From: Defluviitaleaceae bacterium
GTDB taxonomy: Bacteria > Bacillota > Clostridia > Lachnospirales > WQUN01
Reading direction: 5' to 3'
Assembly: GCA_009786975.1 (NCBI GenBank)
Contig: WRGX01000219.1
Span: 1 to 59,021 of the forward strand
DNA length: 59,021 bases
The position numbers and the translations under genes were made by a program. This document shows, one piece after another, positions 13,394-58,762 of this stretch. Positions within the stretch are counted from its first letter, which is position 1; each line of letters starts with the position of its first letter. Under the pieces are notes generated by a model. That model had not been told where the DNA came from. It did not search any database and saw only the letters and a program-made list of their open reading frames with translations.

Positions 13394-13437
13394 AAAAAAA
13401 TGAGTCGGCGAGTGTCACTCGCCGACTCATTTTTTTC
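13394..13437. repeat. P31 palindrome copy (terminator-like hairpin) with no gene to terminate
   Basis: A7-ATGAGTCGGCGAGTG-T-CACTCGCCGACTCAT-T7, with the perfect 15-bp arms at 13400-13430. It lies between the divergently transcribed giant gene and the SLH gene. Confidence 0.8.
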
Positions 13438-19493: not shown

Positions 19494-20750
19494 ATGGCGA
19501 AAGAAACAAAAAAATCGTTTGCATCACTGCCGAAACCCATTGACCTGACAGCACCGGATGCGCCCGAGGGGGCGAAAAGAGGACGGCGAAATGTGCCTGA
19601 ATTTGATGCGGTGCCTGTTGGTATGCCGCGGGAAAATGCGGAAACGAGGCGGATTCCGCCGCCTCCGCCGCCGCCGCTCAGGCCGGGCGATTTTCCGAAA
19701 AAACGCAGACCGTCGAAATCCGCGCCTCCGCCGCGCCTGCGTCCGCGCCGCAAAAATCGACTGATTCAAAGGCTGATTGGTTTTCGTATTAATCCGTTGA
19801 TTTTAAGCGTTGTCGGGTGGAGCGTCGCGGGGATTGCGATAATTGCGTTTTCGGTTTGGTTTATACGGGGATTGCTTGTTGATAATGCGTACGCAGTGTT
19901 TTTGGACGGAGAGCATGTTGGCTATATTGCGATATTCGAAGGCTTGACTTCCGAGGATTTTCACAACGAGGCGGTGCTTAGTTTAGAGGCGATACACAGG
20001 AACGTGCGCGTGCGCGTGGACCAGCGCGTTACCATTGAACGCACGCGAACCGCCGCCCGAAACCGTGAGGCGCGCGGCGATATTATCGCGCGGATAAACC
20101 ACCATGGTTTTACATTTACGATTGCGGCGCACGCGATTTATGTGAACGGCGTGCAGGAGGCTCTTTTAAGCACGCAATCCGATTTGAATCACGTTGAATT
20201 TATGCTTCAGGAGCATTGGCGGAACGAGCACACGGTTTCGGCGGAGTTTGTCGGCAACTGGGAGGTTCGGACGATGTATGTCTGCCCCGATGAAACGGAG
20301 TTTGATACGCCCGATTCCGCATATTTTCGGCTCGACCGCTCGACGATGCAACTTGCCGATTACACCGTTGTAAGCGGCGATACTTTGGACCGAATTGCGG
20401 TGCATTTCGGCACAACAACCACTCGAATTATGGAAGATAATAACATGCAAACGGCAAATATTTGGCCCGGCGACACGCTTCTTATTTACACACAAATGCC
20501 GCTGCTTTCCGTGCGCACGTTTGACGAAATTCACGACGATGAAGCAATTGAAGCACCCATCGAAAATCGCTACAATGTCGACATGCCGCTCGGCACACGA
20601 ACCGTAATACAGGACGGAATGGCCGGCCTCGCGCGCGTTACCGAGCGCATTACCCGCATAAACGGCGTGGAACAATCCCGCGAAATACTGGAAGCGGAAG
20701 TGGTGGTCGAGCCGATTCCCGACATAGTTGAATATGGAGTCGGCGAGTGA
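19494..20750 (+). CDS. membrane-anchored LysM and G5 domain protein with proline-rich N-terminus
   Basis: PPPPPPLRPG tract and TM ILSVVGWSVAGIAIIAFSVWFI. LysM: YTVVSGDTLDRIAVHFGTTTTRIMEDNN..IWPGDTLLIY. G5-like C-terminus: TRTVIQDGMAGLARVTERITRINGVEQSREILEAEVVVEPIPDIVEYG. Confidence 0.8.
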   Translation: MAKETKKSFASLPKPIDLTAPDAPEGAKRGRRNVPEFDAVPVGMPRENAETRRIPPPPPPPLRPGDFPKKRRPSKSAPPPRLRPRRKNRLIQRLIGFRINPLILSVVGWSVAGIAIIAFSVWFIRGLLVDNAYAVFLDGEHVGYIAIFEGLTSEDFHNEAVLSLEAIHRNVRVRVDQRVTIERTRTAARNREARGDIIARINHHGFTFTIAAHAIYVNGVQEALLSTQSDLNHVEFMLQEHWRNEHTVSAEFVGNWEVRTMYVCPDETEFDTPDSAYFRLDRSTMQLADYTVVSGDTLDRIAVHFGTTTTRIMEDNNMQTANIWPGDTLLIYTQMPLLSVRTFDEIHDDEAIEAPIENRYNVDMPLGTRTVIQDGMAGLARVTERITRINGVEQSREILEAEVVVEPIPDIVEYGVGE

Positions 20751-20763
20751 CACTCGCCGACTC
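20737..20763. repeat. P31 palindrome copy overlapping the stop codon of the LysM/G5 gene
   Basis: GAGTCGGCGAGTG-A-CACTCGCCGACTC. The last codons GVGE and the TGA stop are encoded by the 5' arm and loop. The flanking T-tract is weak (AATTTTA). Confidence 0.7.
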
Positions 20764-28245: not shown

Positions 28246-28368
28246 GCCCGCCAAGCGGGCGTGGGAACCGGGGGCATGTGTTGTGTGCGGCGCGTCCGCC
28301 AAGCGGCGTGGGGACCGGGGGCATATGTTATGTGCGGCACGTTCTCTCGAAGCCGGAAACTGATTCGC
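28246..28368 (+). repeat. R90 variant, about 1.5 copies, filling the whole convergent intergenic space
   Basis: Head variant GCCCGCCAAGCGGGC at 28246-28260, starting 2 nt after the stop. A second partial head CCGCCAAGCGG follows, then GACCGGGGGCATATGT..CTCTCGAAGCCGGAAACTG. It ends 2 nt before the Hpt gene stop. Confidence 0.75.
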
Positions 28369-29497: not shown

Positions 29498-29537
29498 AAA
29501 AAAGAGTCGGCGAGTGACACTCGCCGACTCTTTTTTT
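29498..29537. terminator. P31 palindrome acting as the atp operon terminator
   Basis: A6-GAGTCGGCGAGTG-A-CACTCGCCGACTC-T7. On the minus strand it follows atpC and one R90 copy. Confidence 0.8.
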
Positions 29538-37272: not shown

Positions 37273-37503
37273 TCAGAACTTTTTGGCGATATCAATCATC
37301 GCCTTAAAGGCCGCCATACAGCCCAACAGAGAAAGCACAATCGTAAGCCAGGGGCTTATGCCCAAAAGCCCGTCCAAAAAACGCCCGAGCAAAACCCCGC
37401 CAAGCACGCAAATCGCTACCGTTAAGCCGATATGCGTCATAACGCCCATCGCGCGGATAATATTTTTTCTATCCTGCTTGGAAAATTTATTATGTTTCTC
37501 CAT
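37273..37503 (-). CDS. atpZ: AtpZ/AtpI family small membrane protein
   Basis: 76 aa with two TM segments, MGVMTHIGLTVAICVLGGVLLGRFLD..PWLTIVLSLLGCMAAF. This is typical of the ATPase_gene1 family and of the first gene of atp operons. Confidence 0.7.
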   Translation of the reverse strand: MEKHNKFSKQDRKNIIRAMGVMTHIGLTVAICVLGGVLLGRFLDGLLGISPWLTIVLSLLGCMAAFKAMIDIAKKF

Positions 37504-37569
37504 TTATCTATAATATCTCAACAAAAAAAAATGTCAATCATTTTCGATTGCCATTTTTTATTATTTTGC

Positions 37570-37609
37570 AAAAAAGAGTCGGCGAGTGACACTCGCCGAC
37601 TCTTTTTTT
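37570..37609. terminator. P31 palindrome terminator separating the ABC gene from the atp operon
   Basis: A6-GAGTCGGCGAGTG-A-CACTCGCCGACTC-T7. Confidence 0.8.
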
Positions 37610-37875
37610 ACGGACGAGGAAACTGCCCCCGGCTTCGAGAGAACGCGTCGCCGCCGACACATGTCCCCGGTGCCCAATGCGCGCTTGGCGCGCTTTTTTA
37701 TGGGCCGGGAAACTGCCCCCGCCTTCGAGAGAACGCGTCGCCGCCTACACATGCCCCCGGTGCCCAATGCGCGCTTGGCGCGCTTTTTTATGGGCCGGGA
37801 AATTGCTTCCGGCTTCGAGGGAACGCGTCGCCGCCGACACATGCCCCCGGTGCCCATTGCGCGCTTGGCGCGCTT
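37610..37875 (-). repeat. R90 tandem array, 3 units, exact 90-bp period
   Basis: Head palindromes GCGCGCTTGGCGCGC start at 37679, 37769 and 37859. The array begins 8 nt after the ABC gene stop (37884) on the minus strand and ends at the P31 hairpin. Confidence 0.95.
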
Positions 37876-37883
37876 TTCATACG

Positions 37884-39656
37884 TTACGGGCGGGTTTCCA
37901 CCAACGAAAAATACTCCCCGCGAAGCTCCAAAAGTTCCTCGTGTGTCCCGCGCTCCGCGACTTTTCCGTGGTCAATCACCATAATCAAATCCGCGTGTTT
38001 AATCGTAGAAAGCCGATGCGCGATTATAAAGGAAGTGCGGCCTTGCAAAAGGCGGTCGAGGCCTTTTTGCAGGGCTTGCTCGGTGCGTGTGTCGATGTTT
38101 GCGGTGGCTTCGTCTAAGATTAAAATTCGAGGGTCGGCCAAAAGCGCGCGCGCGAAGGAAATCAGTTGCCGCTGACCGACGGAAAGCCGCGTACCGCGCT
38201 CGTTCACCTCGGTTTTGTAGCCCTTTTCGGTCTCCATTATGAATTCATGCGCGCAAACCGCTTTTGCCGCCGCGATTACCTCGTCGTCACTGGCGTCGAG
38301 GCGGCTGTAGCGGATGTTTTCCATGATTGTTCCCGAAAAAAGAAAGCTGTCCTGAAGCATTATGCCCATTTGTCGGCGCAACGAATACAGCGTCGCGTCG
38401 CCGATATCGAAGCCATCGATAAAAATTTGCCCTTTTTCAAGCTCGTAAAATCGCGAAAGCAGGTTCACAACCGTCGTTTTCCCCGCGCCCGTCGGCCCTA
38501 CAAGTGCAATCGTGCTTCCTGCTTCACAGGAAAAATTCACATTGTCCAAGACGGGCTGGTTTTTTTCGTATGAAAAACTTACATTTTTGAACTCGACACG
38601 CCCCTCGATTTCGGGCATATCGCACGCGCCGGGTTTATCCGCGACCAGAACCGGCTCGTCGAGGGTTTCAAAAATTAATTCGAGATAGCTCATGTTTGTG
38701 ACAATCGAATTGTAAAAAATCGCGATATTGTTAATCGGCGTCCAAAATCGATGAATGTACATGACAAACGCGACAAGAACGCCCACTGTAAGCGCGTTAT
38801 CAGCAATCATCGAAACCGCAACAACATATAAAAACGAAACCGCAAGCGTGCTGATATTTTCGATAGTGGGCCGCAACAAAAAGACCATCGCGATACCCTT
38901 CATCCAAGTTTTTTGTACGCTGTACGAAACATCGGCGAAAATCGCTTCATTTTCCGCTTCGCGCGAAAACGCCTGCGTAATTTTCACGCCCGCGATGCTT
39001 TCGTGAATATACGCGTTAAGATTCGACTGTTTCGCGCTGATTAACTGCCACGCCCGCCGATTTTTCGTGCGAATAATAAAAATCGCGCCAAAAAGAAAGG
39101 GCATCCCCGCCATTGCAACAAGCGTGAGCTGCGTGTCAATCGTCAGCATAATTACAACGATAATGCCAAGCGAAAGCATGTCTGTAATCACGTTTAAAAG
39201 CCCGTTCGACAGCATTTCGCTTAAGGAATTTATGTAATTAACAAGCCGCACAAGAATTTTCCCGTGGGGCCGCGAATCAAAAAAACTGAACGGCAAAAGC
39301 TGGATATGTTTAAACAAATCCAGCCGCAAGTCTCGAATTACGCCTTGCCCGACCTTAGCCATCGCCGCGATACGATATCGCATAAAAAATATGTTCAAAA
39401 AAATAGTAGCCAGCATGATTGCCGAAAGAATCAGCACCTGCGCCACATTTCCGGTCGGAATCGCCTCGTCCATAACAATCATCGTAAGGTACGGTGCCAA
39501 AAGCCCAAGCCCGCTCGAGGTAATCGTAAACGCAAAAGTAAGCCCGAAAACGCGCCGATAGGGACGAATATATTTCCCAAGCCGAAACAAATGCCCAAAC
39601 TTAAACACATTTTTTTGGTCGAGAACCTCGTCCTCGCGAAAAGTATTTCGCGCCAC
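37884..39656 (-). CDS. ABC exporter, fused permease/ATPase (type I exporter, probably homodimeric)
   Basis: Walker A GPTGAGKTT, signature LSVGQRQLISFARAL, Walker B ILILDEATANID. The start is reassigned to GTG 39656 (SD AAGGA 8 nt upstream), because the longer ORF to 39782 runs antisense through tRNA-Leu and has no in-frame ATG before the TM region. Confidence 0.85.
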   Translation of the reverse strand: MARNTFREDEVLDQKNVFKFGHLFRLGKYIRPYRRVFGLTFAFTITSSGLGLLAPYLTMIVMDEAIPTGNVAQVLILSAIMLATIFLNIFFMRYRIAAMAKVGQGVIRDLRLDLFKHIQLLPFSFFDSRPHGKILVRLVNYINSLSEMLSNGLLNVITDMLSLGIIVVIMLTIDTQLTLVAMAGMPFLFGAIFIIRTKNRRAWQLISAKQSNLNAYIHESIAGVKITQAFSREAENEAIFADVSYSVQKTWMKGIAMVFLLRPTIENISTLAVSFLYVVAVSMIADNALTVGVLVAFVMYIHRFWTPINNIAIFYNSIVTNMSYLELIFETLDEPVLVADKPGACDMPEIEGRVEFKNVSFSYEKNQPVLDNVNFSCEAGSTIALVGPTGAGKTTVVNLLSRFYELEKGQIFIDGFDIGDATLYSLRRQMGIMLQDSFLFSGTIMENIRYSRLDASDDEVIAAAKAVCAHEFIMETEKGYKTEVNERGTRLSVGQRQLISFARALLADPRILILDEATANIDTRTEQALQKGLDRLLQGRTSFIIAHRLSTIKHADLIMVIDHGKVAERGTHEELLELRGEYFSLVETRP

Positions 39657-39705: not shown

Positions 39706-39787
39706 GCGGATGTGGTGGAATTGGCAGACACGCGAGATTTAGGTTCTCGTGCCGTAAGGTGTGCAGGTTCAAGTCCTGTCATCCGCA
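39706..39787 (+). tRNA. tRNA-Leu (anticodon UAG)
   Basis: Cloverleaf read by eye. Acceptor GCGGATG/CATCCGC plus discriminator A. Anticodon stem CGAGA/TCTCG with loop TTTAGGT. Long variable arm. T-arm GCAGG-TTCAAGT-CCTGT. 82 nt, with no encoded CCA. An extended -10 TGTTATAAT lies at 39680-39688. Confidence 0.9.
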
Positions 39788-40695: not shown

Positions 40696-42591
40696 TTATG
40701 CGCTCTCCTCAAACTGACTGCGATACAATTTTTCATAAACGCCGCCTGCGGCAAGAAGCCCGTCATGCGTACCTTGTTCGGCAATATCGCCGTCCCGCAT
40801 TACTAGGATTAAATCCGCGCTTCGAATCGTCGAAAGGCGATGCGCGATAATAAACGATGTGCGGCCTTGCATCAAATTGTCCATTGCGCGCTGGATTTGA
40901 ATCTCTGTGCGCGTGTCGACATTGCTTGTTGCTTCGTCGAGAATTAGAATGTCGGGGTTTGCCAAAATTGTTCGCGCGATGGTTAATAGCTGTTTTTGTC
41001 CGGCGGAAATATTGTCGGCTTCTTCATTGATTTGCATCCCGTATCCGTCGGGAAGCACGCGAATAAAGTGATGCGCCTGCGCCGCTCGTGCGGCGTTTTT
41101 TACGTCCTCGTCGCTTGCGTCGAGGCGTCCGTATCGGATATTTTCCGCAATTGTGCCGCTGAAAAGCCATGTATCTTGCAAAACCATGCCAAAATGCCGC
41201 CGCAATTCGTCGCGTTCGTATTCCGTAATATTTTTTCCGTCAACAAAAATCCCGCCCGACGCAACATCGTAAAACCGCATAAGCAGCTTGACAATCGTGG
41301 TTTTCCCCGCGCCGGTATGCCCGACAATCGCAATTTTCTGCCCCGGCTTAACCTCCGCCGTAAAATTTTTTATAACAGGCGTGTCCGGCTCATACCCAAA
41401 GCAGACGTTCTTAAACTCCACACGCCCAACGAAAGTTTTTTTGAGAAGGGTTTTTGGTTCCGGGGGCACGTGTAAATCCTTGCGCGTGCTCTCGAAGCCG
41501 GATGCTGTTTGCGTTGCTGCTTGTGTTGCTGATTGCGTTGAAAAAATTTCTCCCCCTAGGTCTTCTTCTTCCTCGCCCAAAAAATCAAAGACTCGCTCCG
41601 CCGCCGCCGCGGTTTGTTGGAAAACTGACGCGACTCCGGCGAGCTGGGCGATTGGGTGCCCGAGCTGGCGCGTGTACTGGATGAAGGCTTGAATTCCGCC
41701 GATTGTCATTGCGCCGTTAAGGGTCAGCGCGCCGCCGATTACGACGATTGCTACATACCCGATGTTACTAATAAATCCGACGATTGGCATCATCATGCCG
41801 GAGAAAAAATTTGCGCGCCAAGAGGCGTTATATAAGGCTTTGTTGTGCTCGTCAAAAGCCTCGACGGATTTTTTTTCGCCGTTGAACGCCTTGACGATGG
41901 CGTGCGCCGTGAACATTTCCTCGATGTGTCCGTTGAGTTTTCCCAGGTCTGCTTGTTGCGCCTTGAAATATTTTTGCGATTTTTGCACGACGAAGGCCGT
42001 GCAAGCCGCCGAAATCGGCAGGGTAATCAGGGCGACAAGCGTCAAAATCGGGCTGATTGTAAGCATCATTATAATCGTTCCGATGATGTGAACCGCGCTC
42101 ATTAACGCCTGGGAAATTCCCGAGCCAAGCGTGTTTGCCAAGGTATCGACGTCGTTTGATATGCGCGAAAGCACGTCTCCGTGCGGGTTTTTATCAAAAT
42201 ATTTCAGCGGCAAGCGATGAATTTTATCGCTTAATTCAACACGCAAGCGATACATAACACGCATGGCTACGCCCGCCATAATGTAGCCCTGTGCGTAGTT
42301 GAAAATAATATTCAGCGAGTGAAGCACGAGCATAATCAACAAAATTTGGCCGATTCGCGAAAAATCTATGCCGCCGACGCCCTCGCCCATGCGTATCAGC
42401 CCGCTGAAAATTTCGTCGGTCGCTTCGCCCAAAATTCGCGGCGCAAGCACCGCCATAATCGTCGAAACCACCATGAAAATCGTCGTAAGCGTGATGACAA
42501 ACATTTCGCCGCCGAGGTACGCCAAAAGTCGCCGAATCGCCCCGCGAAAATTTTTCGGCTTGTCTTCTTTGTGGGGCCCGTGTCGCCTCAT
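40696..42591 (-). CDS. ABC exporter, fused permease/ATPase (heterodimer partner 2)
   Basis: Walker A GHTGAGKTT, signature ISAGQKQLLTIARTI, Walker B ILILDEATSNVD. ATG 42591 overlaps the upstream gene stop as ATGA. The TMD-NBD linker is about 30 aa longer than in the paralog at 37884. Confidence 0.9.
   Translation of the reverse strand: MRRHGPHKEDKPKNFRGAIRRLLAYLGGEMFVITLTTIFMVVSTIMAVLAPRILGEATDEIFSGLIRMGEGVGGIDFSRIGQILLIMLVLHSLNIIFNYAQGYIMAGVAMRVMYRLRVELSDKIHRLPLKYFDKNPHGDVLSRISNDVDTLANTLGSGISQALMSAVHIIGTIIMMLTISPILTLVALITLPISAACTAFVVQKSQKYFKAQQADLGKLNGHIEEMFTAHAIVKAFNGEKKSVEAFDEHNKALYNASWRANFFSGMMMPIVGFISNIGYVAIVVIGGALTLNGAMTIGGIQAFIQYTRQLGHPIAQLAGVASVFQQTAAAAERVFDFLGEEEEDLGGEIFSTQSATQAATQTASGFESTRKDLHVPPEPKTLLKKTFVGRVEFKNVCFGYEPDTPVIKNFTAEVKPGQKIAIVGHTGAGKTTIVKLLMRFYDVASGGIFVDGKNITEYERDELRRHFGMVLQDTWLFSGTIAENIRYGRLDASDEDVKNAARAAQAHHFIRVLPDGYGMQINEEADNISAGQKQLLTIARTILANPDILILDEATSNVDTRTEIQIQRAMDNLMQGRTSFIIAHRLSTIRSADLILVMRDGDIAEQGTHDGLLAAGGVYEKLYRSQFEESA
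41430..41512 (+). repeat. degenerate R90 copy embedded in frame in the ABC linker
   Basis: 41457-41512 reads GGTTCCGGGGGCACGTGTAAATCCTTGCGCGTGCTCTCGAAGCCGGATGCTGTTTGCG. This aligns with the R90 core CACCGGGGGCATGTGTCGGCGGCGACGCATTCCCTCGAAGCCGGACGCAGTTTCCG. The head part (41430-41456) has decayed. Confidence 0.55.
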
Positions 42592-44468
42592 GAGACGGCA
42601 CCCTGACTTGATGCAATTTCGCGGTATTCCGCGCAATTTTTCAAAAGTTCTGCGTGAGTCCCGCGCCCGACGATTTTTCCTTCATCTAATACAAGGATTT
42701 GCTCGGCGTTTATAATCGTGCCGACGCGTTGCGCAATCACGATGATTGCGGCATTTGCGGCATGTTCGCGCAGGGCTTTTCGAAGTGCGGCATCGGTTTG
42801 GAAATCCAGCGCGGAAAACGCGTCGTCGAAGATTAAAATTTCCGGCTCTTTTGCAAGCGCGCGCGCAATCGAAAGCCGCTGGCGTTGTCCGCCGGAAATA
42901 TTTGTGCCGCCCTGCGAAATTTCCGCCGCGAATCCGCCCTCTTTTTCGGCAATAAAATCCGCCGCTTGGGCAACGCGCGCAATTTTTTCAAGGAAGGAAG
43001 GATTGTCTCCGGCTTTGTCTCCGGCTTCGAGAGAACGCGTGGCTTGCGACACATCTTCGCGGTGCCCACCGTGCGCTTGGCGCACTCCGTACTTTATGTT
43101 TGACTCAATCGTCCCCGAAAGAAGCTGCCCTTTTTGCGGCACGTAGCCGATTTTTTCGCGAAGTTCCGCCTGCCGCATCCGCCGAATATCCACCCCGTCA
43201 ACAAGAATCCGCCCGCCGCTTACATCGTAAAACCGAAGCAAAAGCTGCGCAATAGTGGACTTTCCGGCACCGGTTGCCCCAATAATCGCCGTAGTTTCGC
43301 CAGCTTTCGCATCAAACGAAATGCCCTCAACAGCCGCCGCCTCTGCGTTTGGATAGCTGAACGAAACCTGTTCAAAAACAATAGTCGGGGTCAAGGGGGC
43401 TTTGCTCCCTTGCGGGGGATTGGGGGCTGGTCGTCCGCCTAAAGGCGGACTGCTCGCCCATGCGACCGGGGCTGCGCCCCCAAGGTCTTCATCATCGACA
43501 ATACTAAACTCCGTATCAAGCACCTCGGAAATTCTCTTAGCCGAAACCTGCGCTCGCGGCACCATTACAAGCACCATCGAGAACATCATGAACGCGAAAA
43601 GGACTTGCATTGAGTATTGGAAAAAGGCCATCATGTCGCCGATTGGGAGGTCTTCGGAAAGGGTGCCGACGGAACGCGCGCCGAAAAAAATTATTGCGAC
43701 TTGCGTAAAACCCATGATGAACGTGATTGCGGGACCGATGAAAGCCATGGTTCTTCCGATGAAAAGACCGAGGTCGCGCAGGTCGGTGTTGGACTTGTCA
43801 AAACGGGATTTTTCGTGCGCCTGTGCGGCAAAAGCGCGGATGACGGGCAGGCCGTGCAGGATTTCGCGGGCGACGCGGTTGAGCCCGTCGGTCTTTTCTT
43901 GCACAAGAGCGAATTTGGGCATAACAATCGACACAAGAAGTATCACGATGCCGAATAAAATTATCACGGCAAGCCCCAAAATCCAGCTAAGCCCGGGGGC
44001 GCGGGTGAGTGCCATAAAAATTCCGCCGACAGCCAAAATAGGCGCGTAAAGAAGCATGCGCGCCGAAATGTTTGCGACATTTTGGACCTGTGTAACGTCG
44101 TTTGTGCAGCGTGTGATAAGCGACGCCGACGAAAATTTATCGAATTCCGTCTGCGAAAAGTTTTCGACTTTTATGAACAAATCGCGCCGCAAATCACGCG
44201 CCGCGCCCGCCGCAACTTTGGGCGAAATGTATGAAACAATAATCGAAAATGTACCCGCCAAAAGCGCGAAAAAAAGCATTGCGGCACCCGTTTGCAAGAT
44301 AAATTCCATGCGCGACTCGCCCGTTTGGTAGGCATAAACAATGCCGTCGTCAACGATTGCGGACATCAAGGTCGGCAAATAAAGCTCCGCAAGCGACTGC
44401 ACAAAAAGCAGCACAAGTATAAGAATTATTCCGCCCCAAAAGGGCTTTAAATATTTCGCCAGTGACAT
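42588..44468 (-). CDS. ABC exporter, fused permease/ATPase (heterodimer partner 1) carrying in-frame repeat insertions
   Basis: Walker A GATGAGKST, signature ISGGQRQRLSIARAL, Walker B ILIFDDAFSALD. It has an extra ~25 aa between NIKYG and the AADFI helix, and an extra ~24 aa in the TMD-NBD linker, relative to the two paralogs in this window. Confidence 0.9.
   Translation of the reverse strand: MSLAKYLKPFWGGIILILVLLFVQSLAELYLPTLMSAIVDDGIVYAYQTGESRMEFILQTGAAMLFFALLAGTFSIIVSYISPKVAAGAARDLRRDLFIKVENFSQTEFDKFSSASLITRCTNDVTQVQNVANISARMLLYAPILAVGGIFMALTRAPGLSWILGLAVIILFGIVILLVSIVMPKFALVQEKTDGLNRVAREILHGLPVIRAFAAQAHEKSRFDKSNTDLRDLGLFIGRTMAFIGPAITFIMGFTQVAIIFFGARSVGTLSEDLPIGDMMAFFQYSMQVLFAFMMFSMVLVMVPRAQVSAKRISEVLDTEFSIVDDEDLGGAAPVAWASSPPLGGRPAPNPPQGSKAPLTPTIVFEQVSFSYPNAEAAAVEGISFDAKAGETTAIIGATGAGKSTIAQLLLRFYDVSGGRILVDGVDIRRMRQAELREKIGYVPQKGQLLSGTIESNIKYGVRQAHGGHREDVSQATRSLEAGDKAGDNPSFLEKIARVAQAADFIAEKEGGFAAEISQGGTNISGGQRQRLSIARALAKEPEILIFDDAFSALDFQTDAALRKALREHAANAAIIVIAQRVGTIINAEQILVLDEGKIVGRGTHAELLKNCAEYREIASSQGAVS
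43003..43086 (-). repeat. R90 copy inserted in frame in the nucleotide-binding domain of the ABC gene
   Basis: TCTCCGGCTTCGAGAGAACGCGTGGCTTGCGACACATCTTCGCGGTGCCCACC, plus the head GTGCGCTTGGCGCAC (43071-43085). A 12-bp internal duplication GTCTCCGGCTTT/GTCTCCGGCTTC is present. The segment translates as VRQAHGGHREDVSQATRSLEAGDKAG. Confidence 0.85.
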
Positions 44469-44560: not shown

Positions 44561-44600
44561 AAAAAAAAATGAGTCGGCGAGTGTCACTCGCCGACTCATT
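44561..44600. repeat. P31 palindrome copy in a divergent promoter region
   Basis: A9-ATGAGTCGGCGAGTG-T-CACTCGCCGACTCAT (44569-44599). It lies between the ABC start (44468, minus) and the htrA start (44691, plus), so no gene ends here. Confidence 0.75.
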
Positions 44601-48894: not shown

Positions 48895-48936
48895 CAAAAA
48901 TGAGTCGGCGAGTGTCACTCGCCGACTCATTTTTTC
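48895..48936. terminator. P31 palindrome terminator after the ABC ATPase pair
   Basis: A5-ATGAGTCGGCGAGTG-T-CACTCGCCGACTCAT-T5, with arms at 48900-48930. Confidence 0.8.
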
Positions 48937-50137: not shown

Positions 50138-50491
50138 GCGCGCCAAGCGCGCGGTGGGCACCGGGGACATGTGTCGGCGGCGACGCATTCCCTCGAAGCC
50201 GGGAACAGTTTCTTGGTCCACAAAAAAGCGCGCCAAGCGCGCGGTGGGCACCGGGGACACGTGTCGGCGGCGACGCATTCCCTCGAAGCCGGACGCAGTT
50301 TCCGAGCCCATAAAAAAGCGCGCCAAGCGCGCGGTGGGCACCGGGGGCATGTGTCGGCGGCGACGCATTCCCTCGAAGCCGGACGCAGTTTCCGAGCCCA
50401 TAAAAAAGCGCGCCAAGCGCGCGGTGGGCACCGGGGACACGTGTTGGCGGCGACGCATTCCCTCGAAGCCGGATGCAGTTTACCGGTCCAC
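50138..50491 (+). repeat. R90 tandem array, 4 units, exact 90-bp period
   Basis: Head palindromes GCGCGCCAAGCGCGC start at 50138, 50228, 50318 and 50408. Units 2 and 3 differ at 2 of 90 positions. The array starts on the nucleotide after the TAG stop of the upstream gene. Confidence 0.97.
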
Positions 50492-50533
50492 AAAAAAAAC
50501 AACCCGGATGTCAGGTTTCCGGGTTGTTTTTTT
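50492..50533. terminator. bidirectional intrinsic terminator between the oxidoreductase gene/R90 array and glgD
   Basis: A8-AACAACCCGGA (50498-50508) pairs with TCCGGGTTGTT (50518-50528), then T7. Confidence 0.8.
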
Positions 50534-54499: not shown

Positions 54500-54657
54500 G
54501 GCAAAACCCCTTCTTATACCAATATCTCGTTCATTCAATCCGAATCCACCATTCGCACAAATTATATCATTGTTTTTTCATCTGTGTGAAAATCGATGAC
54601 ACTAACCTTGGTCTGTGCTTATTGTCTGTGGTAATATCTTCGCACGAGGTGAAAAAC

Positions 54658-55869
54658 ATGCATGTAAGCGGCATAATCGCCGAATTCAACCCGCTTCATC
54701 GCGGGCATATCGCCCATATAAATGAAACGCGACAAAAATTCGGCGGAAAAATCGTTGTTGCGATGAGCGGGAATTTCGTCCAGCGCGGCGAACCCGCGAT
54801 TTTTGACAAACGAAAACGCACCAAAACGGCTCTTTTGGCGGGCGCGGACATTGTGCTTGAAATTCCTGTGCCGTATGTGATTGCGGGCGCGGATTATTTT
54901 GCGCGAGGAAGTGTCGGGCTTTTGGCGGCGACGGGCGTGGTTTCGACGCTTAGTTTTGGCAGTGAGTGCGGGGATATTGAGGCGATTCGCCAAACGGCGG
55001 ACGTGCTTGCGAACGCGCGCCAAATGCGCGTGCCGATGGCGACACATGCTCCCGAAAACGATTTCGGTTTGTTTGAAGAAACATTGCGCGCGCATCTCGA
55101 CGCGGGCATGTCCTTCGCGGCGGCGCGCGGCGCGGCACTTTCGGCGTGCTTGCCCGATGCGCCGGAAGGCTTGTTCACCAAGCCGAATAACTGCCTCGCA
55201 ATCGAATATTGCAAAGCACTTCTCCTTCTCGGAAGCCCGATGGAAGTTTTCACAACACACCGTGCGTCCGGCGGCCCGTCCGCGACAAAAATTCGCGCGC
55301 GCCAAGCACGCAATGAGCACCGAAGACGCATATCGCACATCGACGACTTCTCAAAAATCTTCCGCCATCTCCTGCACACGCGTGATTTCGACCTCGGCGA
55401 AGGTTTACAAAACCGTTTCCGCAAATTTTCCGCCGAATTCACCCAAATTTCCGAAATAATCGACGCGGTAAAAACCAAACGCTACACGCGCACGCGCCTG
55501 TCCCGCGCGGTTTTGGGCGTAATTTTGGGCATCTCTTCGGCAGATATGGATTTTTTTGATTCGGCGAAAAACTGCACCCGTCTTCGGGGGAACCCGTCGC
55601 ATCCAGCACATGACTTCGGTGCCCAATACATACGCGTTTTGGGCTTTCGCAAAGAAAGCGCGGATTTGCTTGGCGCGATAACAAAAAAGGCCGCGCTGCC
55701 CGTCATAACGCACGGCGCGGCCATGGATGAAATTTTACGCGGCGACAAAGGCGAAGCCGCCGCCGCCATGCTTGCGAAGGACTTCGAAGCAACCGATATT
55801 TACCGAATCGCAACAAACACACCCTGCGCCTTCCGAGGCGAACGCGGCGAAGGGATTATTGTAGTGTAG
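54658..55869 (+). CDS. tmcAL: tRNA(Met) cytidine acetate ligase (TmcAL/YlbM, UPF0348 nucleotidyltransferase)
   Basis: GIIAEFNPLHRGHIAHINETR (HxGH motif), AMSGNFVQRGEPAIFDKRKR and ADIVLEIP. SD GAGGTG upstream of ATG 54658. Confidence 0.8.
   Translation: MHVSGIIAEFNPLHRGHIAHINETRQKFGGKIVVAMSGNFVQRGEPAIFDKRKRTKTALLAGADIVLEIPVPYVIAGADYFARGSVGLLAATGVVSTLSFGSECGDIEAIRQTADVLANARQMRVPMATHAPENDFGLFEETLRAHLDAGMSFAAARGAALSACLPDAPEGLFTKPNNCLAIEYCKALLLLGSPMEVFTTHRASGGPSATKIRARQARNEHRRRISHIDDFSKIFRHLLHTRDFDLGEGLQNRFRKFSAEFTQISEIIDAVKTKRYTRTRLSRAVLGVILGISSADMDFFDSAKNCTRLRGNPSHPAHDFGAQYIRVLGFRKESADLLGAITKKAALPVITHGAAMDEILRGDKGEAAAAMLAKDFEATDIYRIATNTPCAFRGERGEGIIVV
55566..55650 (-). repeat. degenerate R90 copy embedded in frame in tmcAL
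   Basis: GAAAAACTGCACCCGTCTTCGGGGGAACCCGTCGCATCCAGCACATGACTTCGGTGCCCAAT aligns with GGAAACTGCCCCCGGCTTCGAGAGAACGCGTCGCCGCCGACACATGTCCCCGGTGCCCAAT at roughly 70% identity by eye. The head palindrome is lost. Confidence 0.5.
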
Positions 55870-55873
55870 ACGG

Positions 55874-56641
55874 CTAAGACGAAACGTTTGCCGCAACATT
55901 CGGCAACTCACTATTGTCCCCGACGGCGCGGGAAACGTTCGTTTCGCTCGTTGCATCAGCAGTTTCCACCGCGCCCTTGGCGCGACGCAGAATTTTCATG
56001 GTTTCCTCGTCAAGCGGCTCGTAACGCACGCCGTCGGGCAAGCCTTTATTTGCGTTCTGAAACCGCGCGGCGGCGGATTCGGGCGAAGACGCTTGGGCTT
56101 GCATTTGCGGCGGCGCAGACATCGTCGGCGATTTCAACATACGGCCAAGCGGCGGAGCCATCGACGGTCTTTGGGCATGATTCTGCGGCGGAATCATAGG
56201 AGTCCGTTGCGCCTGCGAATAATCATATCCGGCTTCGTGACGAGCTTGCGGCCTCGGCTTCATGTCCCCGGTTAGAAGCGTCCGTTGCGCCTGCGAATAA
56301 TCATATCCGGCTTCGTGACGAGCTTGTGGCCTCGGCGACCGACCCGCCGTAAGCGGCTCAACCGGAACAGCTCGCCGTTCCCCGCGGGCAAGCCCAAGCG
56401 GATAATTTCTGAGCCAAACGTCCGAACCTCCCGAAACATGCGCGGAAGTCCCCGCGCTCTGCGTATTTTTTGCCTCGCGCCCGCGGCTGAAATATGCCGT
56501 CGGTGCCGGCGGAAAATTTAAAGGCATAACATGCACCCCATCAAGTCGAGAAAAACGCGGACTTCGTACTACTTCCCTCTCGAAAGGTTGAAATAGTACC
56601 ACACGTTCTTTTTGCGACTGTTTTTTTCGAAGAAAAAACAC
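55874..56641 (-). CDS. hypothetical P/Q/R-rich protein with an internal 26-aa duplication
   Basis: 255-aa ORF convergent with tmcAL across a 4-bp gap. The start is uncertain: GTG 56641 abuts its SD, and ATG 56527 is also possible. No recognisable domain. Confidence 0.4.
   Translation of the reverse strand: MFFLRKKQSQKERVVLFQPFEREVVRSPRFSRLDGVHVMPLNFPPAPTAYFSRGREAKNTQSAGTSAHVSGGSDVWLRNYPLGLARGERRAVPVEPLTAGRSPRPQARHEAGYDYSQAQRTLLTGDMKPRPQARHEAGYDYSQAQRTPMIPPQNHAQRPSMAPPLGRMLKSPTMSAPPQMQAQASSPESAAARFQNANKGLPDGVRYEPLDEETMKILRRAKGAVETADATSETNVSRAVGDNSELPNVAANVSS
56203..56336. repeat. 78-bp-period tandem duplication (about 1.7 units) inside the P/Q/R-rich ORF
   Basis: TCCGTTGCGCCTGCGAATAATCATATCCGGCTTCGTGACGAGCTTG(C/T)GGCCTCGGC occurs at 56203-56258 and 56281-56336, with 1 mismatch in 56 nt. 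It encodes RPQARHEAGYDYSQAQRT twice. Confidence 0.9.
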
Positions 56642-56896: not shown

Positions 56897-58762
56897 ATGA
56901 CAAATTTGAACACCGGTTTGATTTACACCGACGTAAGCGGATGCATCGATTGCAATAAATGCATCCACGAATGCCCCGTTTTAAAGGCAAATGTTGCAGT
57001 ACCCGATGGTTCCGGCTCGTACAATATATGCGTGGACCAAAACGAGTGCATTTTATGCGGAACATGCAACGACACCTGCACGCACAATGTCCGACATTTC
57101 CGCGACGATTGTGACAGCTTCTTCGACGACCTAAAACGCGGGAAAGCAATTTCGGTTATTGTAGCTCCCGCGTTTTATATTAACTATCCAAGCGAGTACA
57201 AGCGCGTTTTCGGATATTTGAAAAGCATGGGCGTGAAAAATTTTTATTCCGTAAGCTACGGCGCGGATATCACGGCATGGGCGTACTTAAATCACATCAC
57301 CCAAACGGGCAAAATGGGCAATATCGCCCAGCCCTGCCCCTGTATAACAAATTACATCGAAAAACATCAGCCCGAGCTTATCCCAAGCCTAATCCCCGTA
57401 CACTCGCCCATGATGTGTATGGCAATATATTTGAAGCGATACAAAAATGTAAGCGACAGCCTGATGTTCCTGAGTCCGTGCATCGGCAAAAAAGTCGAAA
57501 TCGACTCGAAGCGCGGGTTGGGGATGATTGACTACAACGTTACGTTTGCCACCCTGATGGAGCGCGTCAAAAACAGCGGAGTAAACCTAAACGCACAGCC
57601 CGAGGTCGACGATGTCATCGACTACGGCATGGGCGCGCTTTTTTCAAAGCCGGGCGGCCTGCGCGAAAACGTGGAATTTTACGTGGGGACCGACGCCCTT
57701 GTCGTGCAAGTCGAGGGCGAACACAAGGCGTATTCCTATCTGAAAAATTTTGCGAAACGCGCGGGGTCAAGCTCGCGGTCGATGCCGATGCTTATCGACA
57801 TATTGAACTGCGAAGCGGGTTGCAACCAAGGCACAGCAACCGAGTTTCGCCACTCCACCGACGATTCCATCGCCTTCGAAGCACACCAAATGCGCGCAAA
57901 AAAAGTTAATGGCATGACCGACGCAGAGGGCAATATTTTAACCGACCCCGCCGACCGTCTCGCCCGATTAAACGAAATGTTCGCAGATTTGCGCCTCGAC
58001 GACTTCAAGTGCAACTATGACACAAGCGAGGCACTTCGCACACGCTCAATCGGCGACATGGAAATAAATAAAATTTTTGCGGATATGCTCAAAACCACGC
58101 ACGAGGACAAAACGATTGATTGCAGCGCGTGCGGCTATAAAACCTGCCTTGATTTGGCGCAAGCAATCGCGTACGGCATCAGTTATCCCGAAAAATGCGT
58201 GTACTATGTAAAAGCGAACCTGGACGTACAAATCGAGCATCAAAAAGCCATCGTTGACGGTTTCGCAAACATAAACAATTTGCTCGCCGAGCTTACAAAC
58301 GACAATATAAAAACATCTGAAAGCACAACTTCAATAAACAATCACATCAACGAAGCCGTCGAGCAAGGCGGCGTTATGCGAAAAACCCTCGAGGACATAC
58401 AGGCGGAGTTCGCAAATTTAAACAAAACCTACATGGAAATCGCGACAATCGCGCGGCAAACCAGCTTACTTTCCATAAACGCGGCAATCGAGGCCGCCCG
58501 CGCCGGAAACATGGGTAAAGGCTTTGGCGTCGTTGCGGAAGAAGTCGGCGCGCTTGCAAAAAAAACCATGAGTACCGTAAATGTCAACTCCGAAAACTCC
58601 GAAAACATCTCCAAAGTTTTGAACAAACTAATCGCCGACACAAACTCCCTCATCTCAAAAATCGACAACGTAAACAGCTCCACCGATGAAATCACCGAAA
58701 GCGTAAGCGACATCACCGCAAAAACAGAAAACATTCTCGCGCTTATGGATGAATTGAAATAA
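56897..58762 (+). CDS. soluble [FeFe]-hydrogenase-like (2x[4Fe-4S] plus H-cluster-type domain) protein fused to a methyl-accepting chemotaxis signalling domain
   Basis: Ferredoxin motifs [12 protein letters not shown] and [11 protein letters not shown]. Ordered Cys motifs [14 protein letters not shown] and [14 protein letters not shown] hairpin [44 protein letters not shown]. No TM segment. SD GGGAGGGG. Confidence 0.85.

What the first reader, a model, noticed from the sequence alone, without database searches (positions are those of the whole stretch)
55566..55650. Degenerate R90 copy read in a fourth frame inside tmcAL
The TmcAL segment NCTRLRGNPSHPAHDFGAQY matches the r3 reading of R90 (NCFRLRGNASPPTHAPGAHC in ORF 37432..38175) at 12 of 20 positions. 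The DNA aligns over about 60 nt, including the invariant GGTGCCCAAT. It lies just before the conserved YIRVLGF block, so the insert is probably about 20 aa. The head palindrome is eroded, which fits an old insertion under protein-level selection.
Basis: partly seen in the sequence, partly recalled or inferred. Interest (0 to 1): 0.6.

Follow-up and report, generated by a model that had tools for sequence, protein, structure and literature searches.

The report
Repeat-derived loop inside tRNA-modifying enzyme gene
A piece of a 90-base repeat that litters this gut bacterium's genome sits in frame inside the gene for a tRNA-acetylating enzyme and adds an extra loop, a further example of the "selfish DNA inside genes" known from Rickettsia.

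Summary
tmcAL (54658..55869, +) carries an in-frame, degenerate piece of the R90 repeat. A profile of 269 full R90 copies scores 45.2 bits on 55553..55629 (E 1.2e-11 genome-wide; 0 of 2000 gene shuffles reach it).

None of 111 TmcAL homologs has it. The loop is 31 aa here against 7-15 aa elsewhere.

A low-depth contig of a relative in the one run that holds this DNA shows the empty site. It sets the insert at 55560..55616: 57 nt replace 9 nt, a net gain of 16 aa.

The T7 run on the left and CGGTGCCCAAT on the right are ancestral gene sequence that R90 also contains. The terminal palindrome is therefore absent rather than eroded, and the junctions lie at short homologies.

Two further R90-derived patches, antisense, sit in the same gene at 55015..55075 (+15 aa) and 55297..55352. 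The three patches coincide with the only low-confidence coils of an otherwise confident TmcAL model.

Genome-wide, R90 has about 800 copies (2.7% of the assembly). It lies in frame in at least 23 Pfam-verified genes, mostly antisense; sense copies never keep the terminator-like hairpin.

The scan already noted R90 on this window. This is a new member of a known kind (like Rickettsia palindromic elements).

The parts
54658..55869 (+). tmcAL coding sequence (403 aa plus stop), tRNA(Met) cytidine acetate ligase family
   Evidence: Pfam PF05636 HIGH_NTase1, E 7.8e-90. phmmer to T. maritima and B. subtilis TmcAL structures, E 1.6e-38 and 1.4e-36. AF2 model pLDDT 91.3, Foldseek TM 0.82 to 5y0t. Shares all 61 invariant columns of the 112-sequence alignment. 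The ATG at 54658 matches the ortholog N-termini.
55560..55616 (+). Site C (the finding): 57-nt R90-derived insert in sense orientation, read as (D)SAKNCTRLRGNPSHPAHDF. It replaces 9 nt of the ancestral loop, net +48 nt or +16 aa.
   Evidence: nhmmer 45.2 bits over 55553..55629. The insert alone scores 23.9 bits; none of 5000 shuffles reaches that. Boundaries come from the empty-site contig, record 4. Absent from 111 of 111 homologs. Coil at residues 303-324 with pLDDT 60-66.
55551..55557 (+). T7 run at the left junction. It is ancestral (codes D-F-F) and matches the T6 that starts every R90 unit.
   Evidence: Present in the empty allele and as TTTTT/TTTTTT in orthologs L004, L002 and L007. R90 consensus positions 1-6 are T6.
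55617..55627 (+). CGGTGCCCAAT at the right junction. It is ancestral (codes G-A-Q-Y) and identical to R90 positions 65-75 in units that read ...CCCAAT.
   Evidence: The empty allele continues from 55617. R90 units a1_0 and a1_1 read CCGGTGCCCAAT.
55297..55352 (-). Site B: antisense R90 patch that starts with the palindrome head (GCGCGCCAAGCACGC), read as ARQARNEHRRRISH. It replaces the EKLHARGG.. segment of the closest relatives, net +9 nt.
   Evidence: nhmmer 22.9 bits, model 36-90, E 1.1e-4 genome-wide; none of 2000 shuffles reaches that. 23 of 26 nt identical to the R90 reverse-complement head. G003 and P0002 differ here. Flagged as a terminator-like hairpin on the minus strand at 55313..55293.
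55015..55075 (-). Site A: antisense R90 patch with palindrome head GCGCGCCAAATGCGC, an internal 18-nt deletion, then body. Read as ARQMRVPMATHAPENDFGL, net +45 nt or +15 aa.
   Evidence: nhmmer 17.3 bits, model 12-69; none of 2000 shuffles reaches that. Gapped alignment: 13 of 15 for the head, then 20 of 27. All 111 homologs have exactly 9 aa here against 24. Coil at residues 123-135, pLDDT 59-73.
37604..37877 (+). Reference R90 tandem array (3 units of 90 nt), intergenic, directly after a 27-nt palindrome and its T-run
   Evidence: TRF period 90, 3.0 copies, 92% matches. nhmmer 89-93 bits per unit. Each unit ends in GCGCGCTTGGCGCGC plus a T-run, flagged as terminator-like.
50138..50497 (-). 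Reference R90 tandem array (4 units)
   Evidence: TRF period 90, 4.0 copies. nhmmer 91-93 bits per unit.

Best explanation
Shown. R90 is a 90-nt, lineage-specific, very high-copy repeat. Each unit consists of a T6 run, a 69-nt body and the hairpin GCGCGC-TTG-GCGCGC; the hairpin is followed by the next T-run and so looks like an intrinsic terminator. The unit is 30 codons long and open in 5 of 6 frames.

A 57-nt piece of its body (about model positions 8-64) sits in frame, in sense orientation, in a loop of tmcAL. There it replaces 9 nt (ESHG becomes DSAKNCTRLRGNPSHPAHDF, net +16 aa). The piece is missing from every other TmcAL examined. The gene keeps all family-invariant residues and a confident TmcAL fold, and the insert is a low-confidence coil between helix 294-302 and strand 325-330.

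Inferred.
- The patch entered where the gene happened to resemble R90 on both sides: a T7 run and CGGTGCCCAAT, 11 nt apart in the ancestor. Entry was either one short-homology copy event (template switch or illegitimate recombination with one of about 800 R90 copies), or insertion of a unit at the T-run followed by deletion between the two CGGTGCCCAAT direct repeats.
- Either route leaves out the hairpin and T-run. That module would act as a terminator inside a sense transcript, which would explain why only a truncated copy survives here.
- The extra loop is a tolerated passenger, not an adaptation.

tmcAL was hit three times. The two other patches are antisense, which is the orientation in which the hairpin has no trailing U-run.
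For: R90 origin:
- 45.2 bits, E 1.2e-11; none of 2000 shuffles reaches it.
- The insert alone scores 23.9 bits; none of 5000 shuffles reaches it.
- Orthologous loci reach at most 7.1 bits.

Lineage-specific insertion:
- 0 of 111 homologs have a loop longer than 15 aa.
- There are gaps against G003 and against TmTmcAL 5y0r.
- Empty allele: a 125-nt contig at depth 2.7 reads 55542-55559, then AAGCCACGG, then 55617-55663. This translates to DFFESHGGAQYIRV. Its loose end continues as ..LLGEITKKA, the ortholog consensus.

Gene intact:
- 61 invariant columns are shared; pLDDT is 91.3; TM is 0.82 to 5y0t.
- The three lowest-pLDDT stretches, blocks 121-140, 201-230 and 301-320, are the three R90 sites.

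Family behaviour:
- 798 hits at E<=1e-3. 713 hits at E<=1e-5 form 540 arrays covering 2.66% of the assembly.
- The family was found only in G000, G003 and G009 of 31 related genomes, plus one weak hit in G002.
- 32 of 40 spanning ORFs tested have Pfam domains.
- In 23 genes with Pfam-matched residues on both sides there are 34 antisense copies, 25 of them reaching the end of the hairpin. There are 6 sense copies, none reaching it. With tmcAL added, Fisher p = 5e-4.
- Intact units are flagged as terminator-like.

T-run and A-run targets of full copies:
- RNase R: ATAAAAA in the empty G004 and G002 sites.
- HI0933-like: an A-run in G004.
- RibF: GGAAAAT.
- 48-70% T at each of the six positions after arrays.
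Against: - The empty allele rests on one short contig. Its left arm is 18 nt, below the 30-nt side the tool advises for joints. It has 5 differences in the 47-nt right arm and comes from another organism in a run that may be the source of this assembly.
- The one-step and two-step routes cannot be told apart. A simple count for the two-step route gives +47 nt rather than +48 nt, so it needs one further 1-nt change.
- Copies in arrays are not independent, so the Fisher p value overstates the case. I assigned genes to the 'flanked by Pfam' set by hand.
- Part of the orientation bias is expected from target supply. Sense-strand A6 runs outnumber T6 runs 1.9 to 1 in 808 long ORFs.
- Low pLDDT in the insert may only reflect that no homolog has it, not real disorder.
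- There is no evidence here that the insert is transcribed or translated, or that the enzyme is active.
- No mobilising enzyme was found. PF01797 was not found in G000, G003 or G009, which are 92, 94 and 71% complete.
Confidence: 0.85

Rival explanations
1. A complete R90 unit was inserted long ago, and its terminal palindrome has since decayed by point mutation under protein-level selection.
For: The copy is diverged: 74% identity, 44th lowest of 572. Full units do sit in other genes next to A/T-runs. The left junction is a T-run.
Against: Downstream of 55616 the sequence is the ancestral gene itself. CGGTGCCCAATACATACGC continues unchanged in the empty allele and codes the conserved GAQYIRV. 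There is no room for a decayed 15-nt palindrome. The net gain is 48 nt, not 84-90.
Confidence: 0.07
2. The extra loop is adaptive: R90-encoded peptide recruited for a new tRNA contact, partner or regulation in TmcAL.
For: The frame is kept, and the copy has diverged from the consensus more than most. Three patches are tolerated in one enzyme. RPE inserts in Rickettsia have been discussed as possible sources of new protein parts (PMC10969869 and PMC2229807, passages read).
Against: Only one lineage has it, so no conservation can be measured. The loop is predicted as low-confidence coil. The same repeat is scattered through at least 23 unrelated genes in several frames and both orientations, which fits tolerance better than recruitment. 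The one RPE insert tested at the bench, in gmk, was neutral or slightly harmful (PMC2229807, passage read).
Confidence: 0.05
3. Assembly artefact: a repeat read was wrongly threaded into tmcAL in a fragmented metagenome bin of 219 contigs.
For: Repeats break and confuse short-read assemblies, and many contigs of this bin end in R90.
Against: The insert is a diverged, truncated copy found nowhere else (at most 74% identical to any of 269 full copies). It keeps the frame. A second assembler's contig of the one run holding it is identical across the whole gene at depth 82; that is the same reads, so it is not independent.
Confidence: 0.02
4. Chance resemblance, or the reverse direction of descent with R90 derived from this tmcAL loop.
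For: Eleven of the matching bases (CGGTGCCCAAT) are indeed ancestral gene sequence.
Against: The insert without those bases still scores 23.9 bits against a shuffle maximum of 5.1. The loop is absent from 111 homologs, while R90 occurs in G003 and G009, and G003's tmcAL lacks it. The tmcAL copy is among the least consensus-like copies.
Confidence: 0.01

Closest known systems
Rickettsia palindromic elements (RPE; Ogata et al. 2000, as described in PMC2229807 and PMC10969869, passages read)
   Same: Short, high-copy, lineage-specific repeats that lie both between genes and in frame inside conserved housekeeping genes. They add a peptide that the protein tolerates, and their unit is open to translation.
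   Different: - The host is an unrelated gut Firmicute; NCBI labels homologs as Defluviitaleaceae MAGs.
- The unit is 90 nt, against 105-150 nt for RPE.
- There are no terminal inverted repeats.
- The 3' module looks like a terminator.
- Tandem arrays of up to 5-6 units occur inside genes.
- Several frames and both strands are used.
- There is a strong link to T-runs and to a second palindrome family.
- Sequence relatedness to RPE was not tested.
Intragenic MITEs with open frames (ERIC, the 107-bp Correia/NEMIS form, YPAL; PMC2229807, passages read)
   Same: Small non-autonomous repeats found fused in frame to host ORFs. Only forms without stop codons occur inside genes.
   Different: MITEs are defined by terminal inverted repeats and target-site duplications. 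R90 shows no TIR. It has only T/A-run flanks that could be either target or element sequence. No parent IS was identified.
REP/BIME elements with RAYT transposases, and terminator-like repeats such as SPRITE of S. pneumoniae. SPRITE is known to me only from the abbreviation list of PMC10969869; its properties are recalled.
   Same: GC-rich hairpin repeats placed after genes, often in clusters, that resemble or act as terminators.
   Different: REPs are 20-40 nt and extragenic. No Y1/RAYT family gene (PF01797) was found in G000, G003 or G009. R90 is longer and enters genes.
TmcAL (B. subtilis YlbM, T. maritima TmcAL; PDB 5y0n-5y0t)
   Same: Same family and fold. The enzyme makes ac4C34 on elongator tRNA(Met) from acetate and ATP (PMC11109946, passage read).
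   Different: This copy has three repeat-derived segments, about 56 of its 403 residues, at loops that are 9 aa, 7-68 aa and 7-15 aa in 111 homologs.

Membership tests
TmcAL / PF05636 HIGH_NTase1 (the host gene) | Significant match to the family profile over its full length | tested here: met
   PF05636 E 7.8e-90, residues 2-389 against profile 1-392 of 402.
TmcAL / PF05636 HIGH_NTase1 (the host gene) | Fold of solved TmcAL | tested here: met
   AF2 pLDDT 91.3. Foldseek TM 0.82 to T. maritima TmcAL (5y0t) and 0.76-0.77 to B. subtilis TmcAL (5y0n, 5y0o).
TmcAL / PF05636 HIGH_NTase1 (the host gene) | Acetate- and ATP-dependent ac4C34 formation on tRNA(Met) | not testable with these tools
   Only conservation can be shown: all 61 invariant columns of 112 homologs are kept.
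R90 repeat family (this genome) | Significant match to the profile of full-length copies | tested here: met
   45.2 bits, E 1.2e-11. The insert alone scores 23.9 bits.
R90 repeat family (this genome) | Complete unit with 3' hairpin GCGCGC-TTG-GCGCGC and T-run | tested here: not met
   The match stops at model position 77, and the bases beyond 55616 are ancestral gene. It is a fragment, not a whole unit.
RPE-like in-frame repeats (functional class) | High-copy short repeat found in frame inside conserved protein genes, absent from orthologs | tested here: met
   798 hits. 23 Pfam-verified genes. Empty orthologous sites for tmcAL, RibF, RNase R and HI0933-like.
RPE (Rickettsia families proper) | Sequence homology to an RPE family; long stem-loop formed by terminal inverted repeats | tested here: not met
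   No TIR. The whole unit folds no better than shuffles, z 0.07 and 0.27. Homology to RPE sequences was not tested. The host is a Firmicute.
MITE | Terminal inverted repeats | tested here: not met
   Only the 3' hairpin is found; the 5' and 3' ends do not pair.
MITE | Target-site duplication | tested here: inconclusive
   Bodies are flanked by A/T-runs on both sides, and the empty sites are A-runs. The run is also part of every unit in arrays, so duplication cannot be separated from element sequence.
REP/RAYT system | Cognate Y1 (RAYT/TnpA) transposase gene in the genome | tested here: not met
   PF01797 was not found in G000, G003 or G009 (92, 94 and 71% complete). The search rang in 6 of 14 control genomes.

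The most novel reading that the evidence does not exclude
R90 spreads mainly by short-homology copy-and-paste aimed at T-runs rather than by a transposase. Terminator tails, Phe/Lys codon runs and its own T6 would all be targets, which would explain tandem arrays, attachment to the second palindrome family and patches bounded by microhomology. That would make it a steady generator of new loops in essential enzymes of a free-living gut Firmicute: three aminoacyl-tRNA synthetases, RNase R, LigA, RibF, TilS and TmcAL. Transcription termination would act as the filter that decides which orientation and which part of the element can stay inside genes.
Probability: 0.3. Interest if true: 0.65.

Novelty: new member of a known kind. 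Interest (0 to 1): 0.45.

Why it matters
This tmcAL gene is a compact record of how selfish repeats remodel essential proteins. One enzyme took three separate hits, and about one residue in seven is repeat-derived, yet it keeps its invariant residues and its fold.

The empty allele gives base-level junctions for such an event, which is uncommon. It points to short homology, not decay, as the reason the terminator-like end is missing.

Together with the genome-wide pattern (antisense copies whole, sense copies always truncated), this gives a testable rule for which repeat insertions genes can tolerate. It also shows that RPE-like behaviour is not confined to reduced intracellular genomes.

For annotation, the case is a warning. 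R90 arrays create long spurious ORFs: 8 of the 40 spanning ORFs tested had no Pfam match. R90 also inflates real proteins by up to about 180 aa.

Tried and rejected
- Rfam at gathering thresholds on the whole window found only a tRNA at 39706-39787 and no family for R90.
- Folding one R90 unit on either strand gave no excess stability (z 0.07 and 0.27). Only the 3' hairpin is robust.
- A search for a Y1/RAYT transposase (PF01797) as mobiliser found nothing in the three R90-bearing genomes. Other transposase families were not searched.
- Target supply as the sole cause of the orientation bias: A6:T6 is 1.9:1 in long ORFs. By my hand count about 25 antisense and 6 sense events were observed. Target supply explains part of this, not the truncation pattern.
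- G003 as an empty-site reference for site B. G003 and P0002 have a different short segment there (EKLHARGG..) with no R90 signal, so site B is a replacement and its ancestral state stays unclear.
- RNA evidence: no RNA holder was listed for the stretch.
- Independent DNA evidence: only one run holds the stretch, and it may be the source of this DNA.
- The TmcAL structure paper (DOI tried) is not held. Statements about which TmcAL domain binds tRNA are therefore not made from it.
- The scan's notes, searched by R90 sequence, showed no look-alike in other genomes.
- Literature searches turned up RPE and MITE reviews, and nothing on such repeats in Defluviitaleaceae or termite-gut Clostridia. 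That covers four term sets in the held library only.
- One search was a script stub that did nothing.
Full report
**What is at the coordinates.** The ORF covering 55566..55650 is tmcAL. The longest frame runs 54586..55869. The ATG at 54658 matches ortholog N-termini, giving 403 aa. It matches PF05636 (HIGH_NTase1) at E 7.8e-90 and the solved TmcAL proteins of T. maritima and B. subtilis. TmcAL makes ac4C34 on tRNA(Met) from acetate and ATP (PMC11109946, passage read). NCBI labels close homologs as Defluviitaleaceae MAGs.

**What R90 is.** Tandem Repeats Finder reports 90-nt arrays at 37604-37877 (3 units, +) and 50138-50497 (4 units, -).
- A profile of these 7 units finds 759 hits at E<=1e-3 in the 2.21-Mb assembly.
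- A profile of 269 full-length copies finds 798 hits at E<=1e-3 and 646 at E<=1e-10.
- The 713 hits at E<=1e-5 form 540 arrays: 418 single, 85 double, 26 triple, 8 quadruple and 3 quintuple. They cover 58.8 kb, 2.66% of the assembly.
- The consensus unit is a T6 run, a body, and GCGCGC-TTG-GCGCGC. The next T-run follows. A simple scan flags each intact unit as terminator-like.
- Apart from that hairpin, the unit folds no better than shuffles and has no terminal inverted repeats. Rfam has no match.
- By BLASTN the family occurs in G000, G003 and G009 of 31 related genomes, with one weak hit in G002. It was found in none of the other five congeners or the 21 other genera searched.

**Check of the observation.** The protein comparison (12 of 20 residues) is correct as read.
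- The improved profile hits 55553..55629 on the + strand, model 1-77, 45.2 bits, E 1.2e-11 genome-wide.
- None of 2000 dinucleotide shuffles of the gene scores above 12.8 bits.
- 42 kb of orthologous loci from 11 relatives score at most 7.1 bits.
- Identity to the consensus is 74%, the 44th lowest of 572 ungapped copies (median 86.7%).

In an alignment of this protein with 111 homologs (the 112-row alignment, from the 120 listed), the stretch between ILGI and YIRVLGF is 31 aa here. It is 7-15 aa in all 111 others, and 74 of them have 15.
- The closest species genome (G003, 73% nt identity across the gene) lacks it.
- T. maritima TmcAL aligns with a gap.
- The condition that would have refuted the reading, homologous residues with no length difference in unrelated orthologs, is not met.

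**Exact boundaries from an empty allele.** Only one public run holds this DNA, and it may be its source.
- Its main contig is identical over the whole gene at depth 82. This is a second assembler working on the same reads.
- A 125-nt contig at depth 2.7 lies on 55542-55559 with 0 differences, then has 9 other letters (AAGCCACGG), then lies on 55617-55663 with 5 differences. Its loose end continues as ..LLGEITKKA, the ortholog consensus.
- Read in frame it gives DFFESHGGAQYIRV, the ordinary ortholog loop (compare L008, HGGAQYIRV).
- I read it as a relative's tmcAL with the site empty. The caveats are the 18-nt left arm, a single contig and low depth.
- It sets the insert at 55560..55616: 57 nt in place of 9, net +48 nt, with 20 residues replacing ESHG.
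- The insert alone scores 23.9 bits against R90; none of 5000 shuffles reaches that (maximum 5.1).

**What the junctions say.** The T7 run (55551-55557, coding D-F-F) and CGGTGCCCAAT (55617-55627, coding G-A-Q-Y) are present in the empty allele. Both are also R90 sequence, at positions 1-6 and 65-75 in units ending ..CCCAAT.
- The 'invariant GGTGCCCAAT' is therefore ancestral gene sequence, and the palindrome was never left in the gene.
- Two routes fit. One is a single copy event primed by the two short homologies. The other is insertion of a unit at the T-run followed by deletion between the two CGGTGCCCAAT repeats.
- I cannot separate the two routes. A simple count for the second gives +47 nt, so it needs one more 1-nt change.

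**Two more patches in the same gene.**
- Site A: the profile hits 55075..55018 on the minus strand (17.3 bits; none of 2000 shuffles reaches that). Site A begins with a palindrome head GCGCGCCAAATGCGC (13 of 15), skips 18 nt of the unit, then matches 20 of 27. Every one of 111 homologs has exactly 9 aa here, against 24.
- Site B: the profile hits 55352..55297 on the minus strand (22.9 bits; none of 2000 shuffles reaches that). Site B matches the R90 head at 23 of 26 nt. It replaces the EKLHARGG segment of the two closest relatives, net +3 aa.
- Both are read in the same antisense frame (ARQMR.., ARQAR..).
- Together the three patches account for about 56 of 403 residues.

**Structure.** AlphaFold2 with the 112-sequence alignment gives pLDDT 91.3 and pTM 0.91. 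Foldseek gives TM 0.82 to 5y0t.
- The lowest-confidence stretches are blocks 121-140 (59, 73), 201-230 (77-83) and 301-320 (66, 60).
- The coils at 123-135, 219-227 and 303-324 are the three patches.
- Low confidence may partly reflect that no homolog has these residues.

**Genome-wide context.**
- Of 759 hits, 128 lie in a frame open for at least 100 codons on both sides, in 88 distinct stop-to-stop ORFs. Of the copy-ORF pairs, 100 are antisense to the ORF and 30 are sense.
- I tested 40 of the 88 ORFs against Pfam, and 32 have families at E<=1e-5. The 8 without a family all carry only sense-oriented copies: 6 hold at least one complete or nearly complete unit, and the other 2 hold fragments. 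All look like spurious array ORFs.
- I kept 23 genes in which the copies have Pfam-matched residues on both sides. I dropped 9 where the copy lies outside matched regions or the ORF may fuse two genes: L020, L022, L025, L026, L030, L034, L036, L054 and L070.
- In the 23 genes there are 34 antisense copies in 18 genes. Of these, 25 reach model position 89-90 and 18 are full length. There are 6 sense copies in 6 genes, and none reaches position 89. With tmcAL added, Fisher p = 5e-4. Copies in arrays are not independent.
- The genes include LeuRS, ValRS, AlaRS, RNase R, LigA, a ClpB-like ATPase, RibF (3 full units between its two domains), ThiI, TGT, PrmA, AroC, and MiaB-like and RlmD-like enzymes.
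- Target supply explains part of the bias: A6:T6 runs are 1.9:1 on the sense strand of 808 long ORFs. It does not explain why sense copies are always truncated.

**Where full units go.** Empty orthologous sites are A-runs.
- RNase R: ATAAAAA in G004 and G002.
- HI0933-like: GTTAAAAAAATCATAAAAAAC in G004.
- RibF: GGAAAAT in G009 and G003.
- After arrays, 48-70% of bases at each of the next six positions are T.
- Upstream of arrays, 77% of 317 flanks fold at -12 kcal/mol or better, against 12% of 600 control T6 sites. Many of these flanks are one and the same palindrome (see the items noticed in passing).
- No Y1 transposase family gene was found in the three R90-bearing genomes.

**Comparison with what is known.** In-frame insertion of short repeats into conserved genes is the hallmark of Rickettsia palindromic elements. 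It also occurs with ERIC, the short Correia form and YPAL (PMC2229807 and PMC10969869, passages read). The one RPE insert tested at the bench, in gmk, was neutral or slightly harmful.
- R90 works like these elements, but it is not an RPE or a MITE by their defining features: it has no TIR, a different host, and no demonstrable TSD.
- My searches found no description of such a repeat in this group.
- The scan has already noted R90 and two other in-frame copies on this same window. I re-detected those copies at 43015-43083 and 41458-41511.

**Verdict.** It is a new member of a known kind. It is of moderate interest for three reasons: the three hits in one essential enzyme, the base-level junctions, and the rule that links orientation to the terminator-like module.

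Noticed in passing
window 37578-37600, 13404-13426, 20739-20761, 29506-29528, 44573-44595, 48904-48926: A second high-copy family: a perfect palindrome, GTCGGCGAGTG[A/T]CACTCGCCGAC, with an A-run on one side and a T-run on the other, like a bidirectional terminator. It has 329 copies with at most 2 mismatches in the genome. 195 lie within 20 nt of an R90 copy, and 190 of those are on the T6 (5') side of R90. R90 arrays therefore usually start at this palindrome's T-run.
   Followed up: partly
G000:C75:489-1889 (L034), G000:C215:26954-28996 (L021), G000:C131:2495-3928 (L033): Tandem R90 arrays read through inside real genes. There are 5 units in a TilS-like PP-loop protein, 6 units in an RlmD/TrmA-like methyltransferase, and 3 full units plus a partial one between the FAD-synthetase and flavokinase domains of RibF. 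G009 and G003 RibF lack the array.
   Followed up: partly
L033 (RibF), aa 218-307: In the antisense frame that would read TAA in the consensus tail (CCCATAAAAAA), the RibF units read CCGGCAAAAAA instead, so the stop is absent. This may be a subfamily, or selection on translated copies.
   Followed up: no
L040 (G003 RNase R) and L073 (G003 HI0933-like): At the same loops where G000 carries R90, G003 carries other, unrelated insertions: 165 nt in RNase R, and 270 nt coding a low-complexity SKSPPESK-type linker in the HI0933-like gene. The latter shows no R90 signal. These loops seem to be general hot spots for insertions.
   Followed up: partly
window 55874-56641 (-): An ORF convergent with tmcAL, with stop codons 4 nt apart and no terminator between them. 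It has no Pfam match and contains a twice-repeated PRPQARHEAGYDYSQAQRT segment. The first terminator-like hairpin on its strand beyond its stop codon is the antisense R90 remnant inside tmcAL at 55313-55293.
   Followed up: no
window 56897-58762 (+): A 621-aa protein that joins an Fe-only-hydrogenase large-subunit domain and Fe-S motifs to a methyl-accepting chemotaxis signalling domain. It may be a hydrogenase-like sensor.
   Followed up: no
window 28248-28366: A 47-nt tandem repeat (2 copies) overlaps weak R90 hits on the minus strand. It may be a rearranged R90 derivative.
   Followed up: no
window 55699-55740: A second low-depth contig in the same run (281 nt, depth 3.8) matches tmcAL here with 4 differences. 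It then diverges into a different sequence for the variable LRGDKGEAAAAM region, so at least one further relative is present in that community.
   Followed up: no
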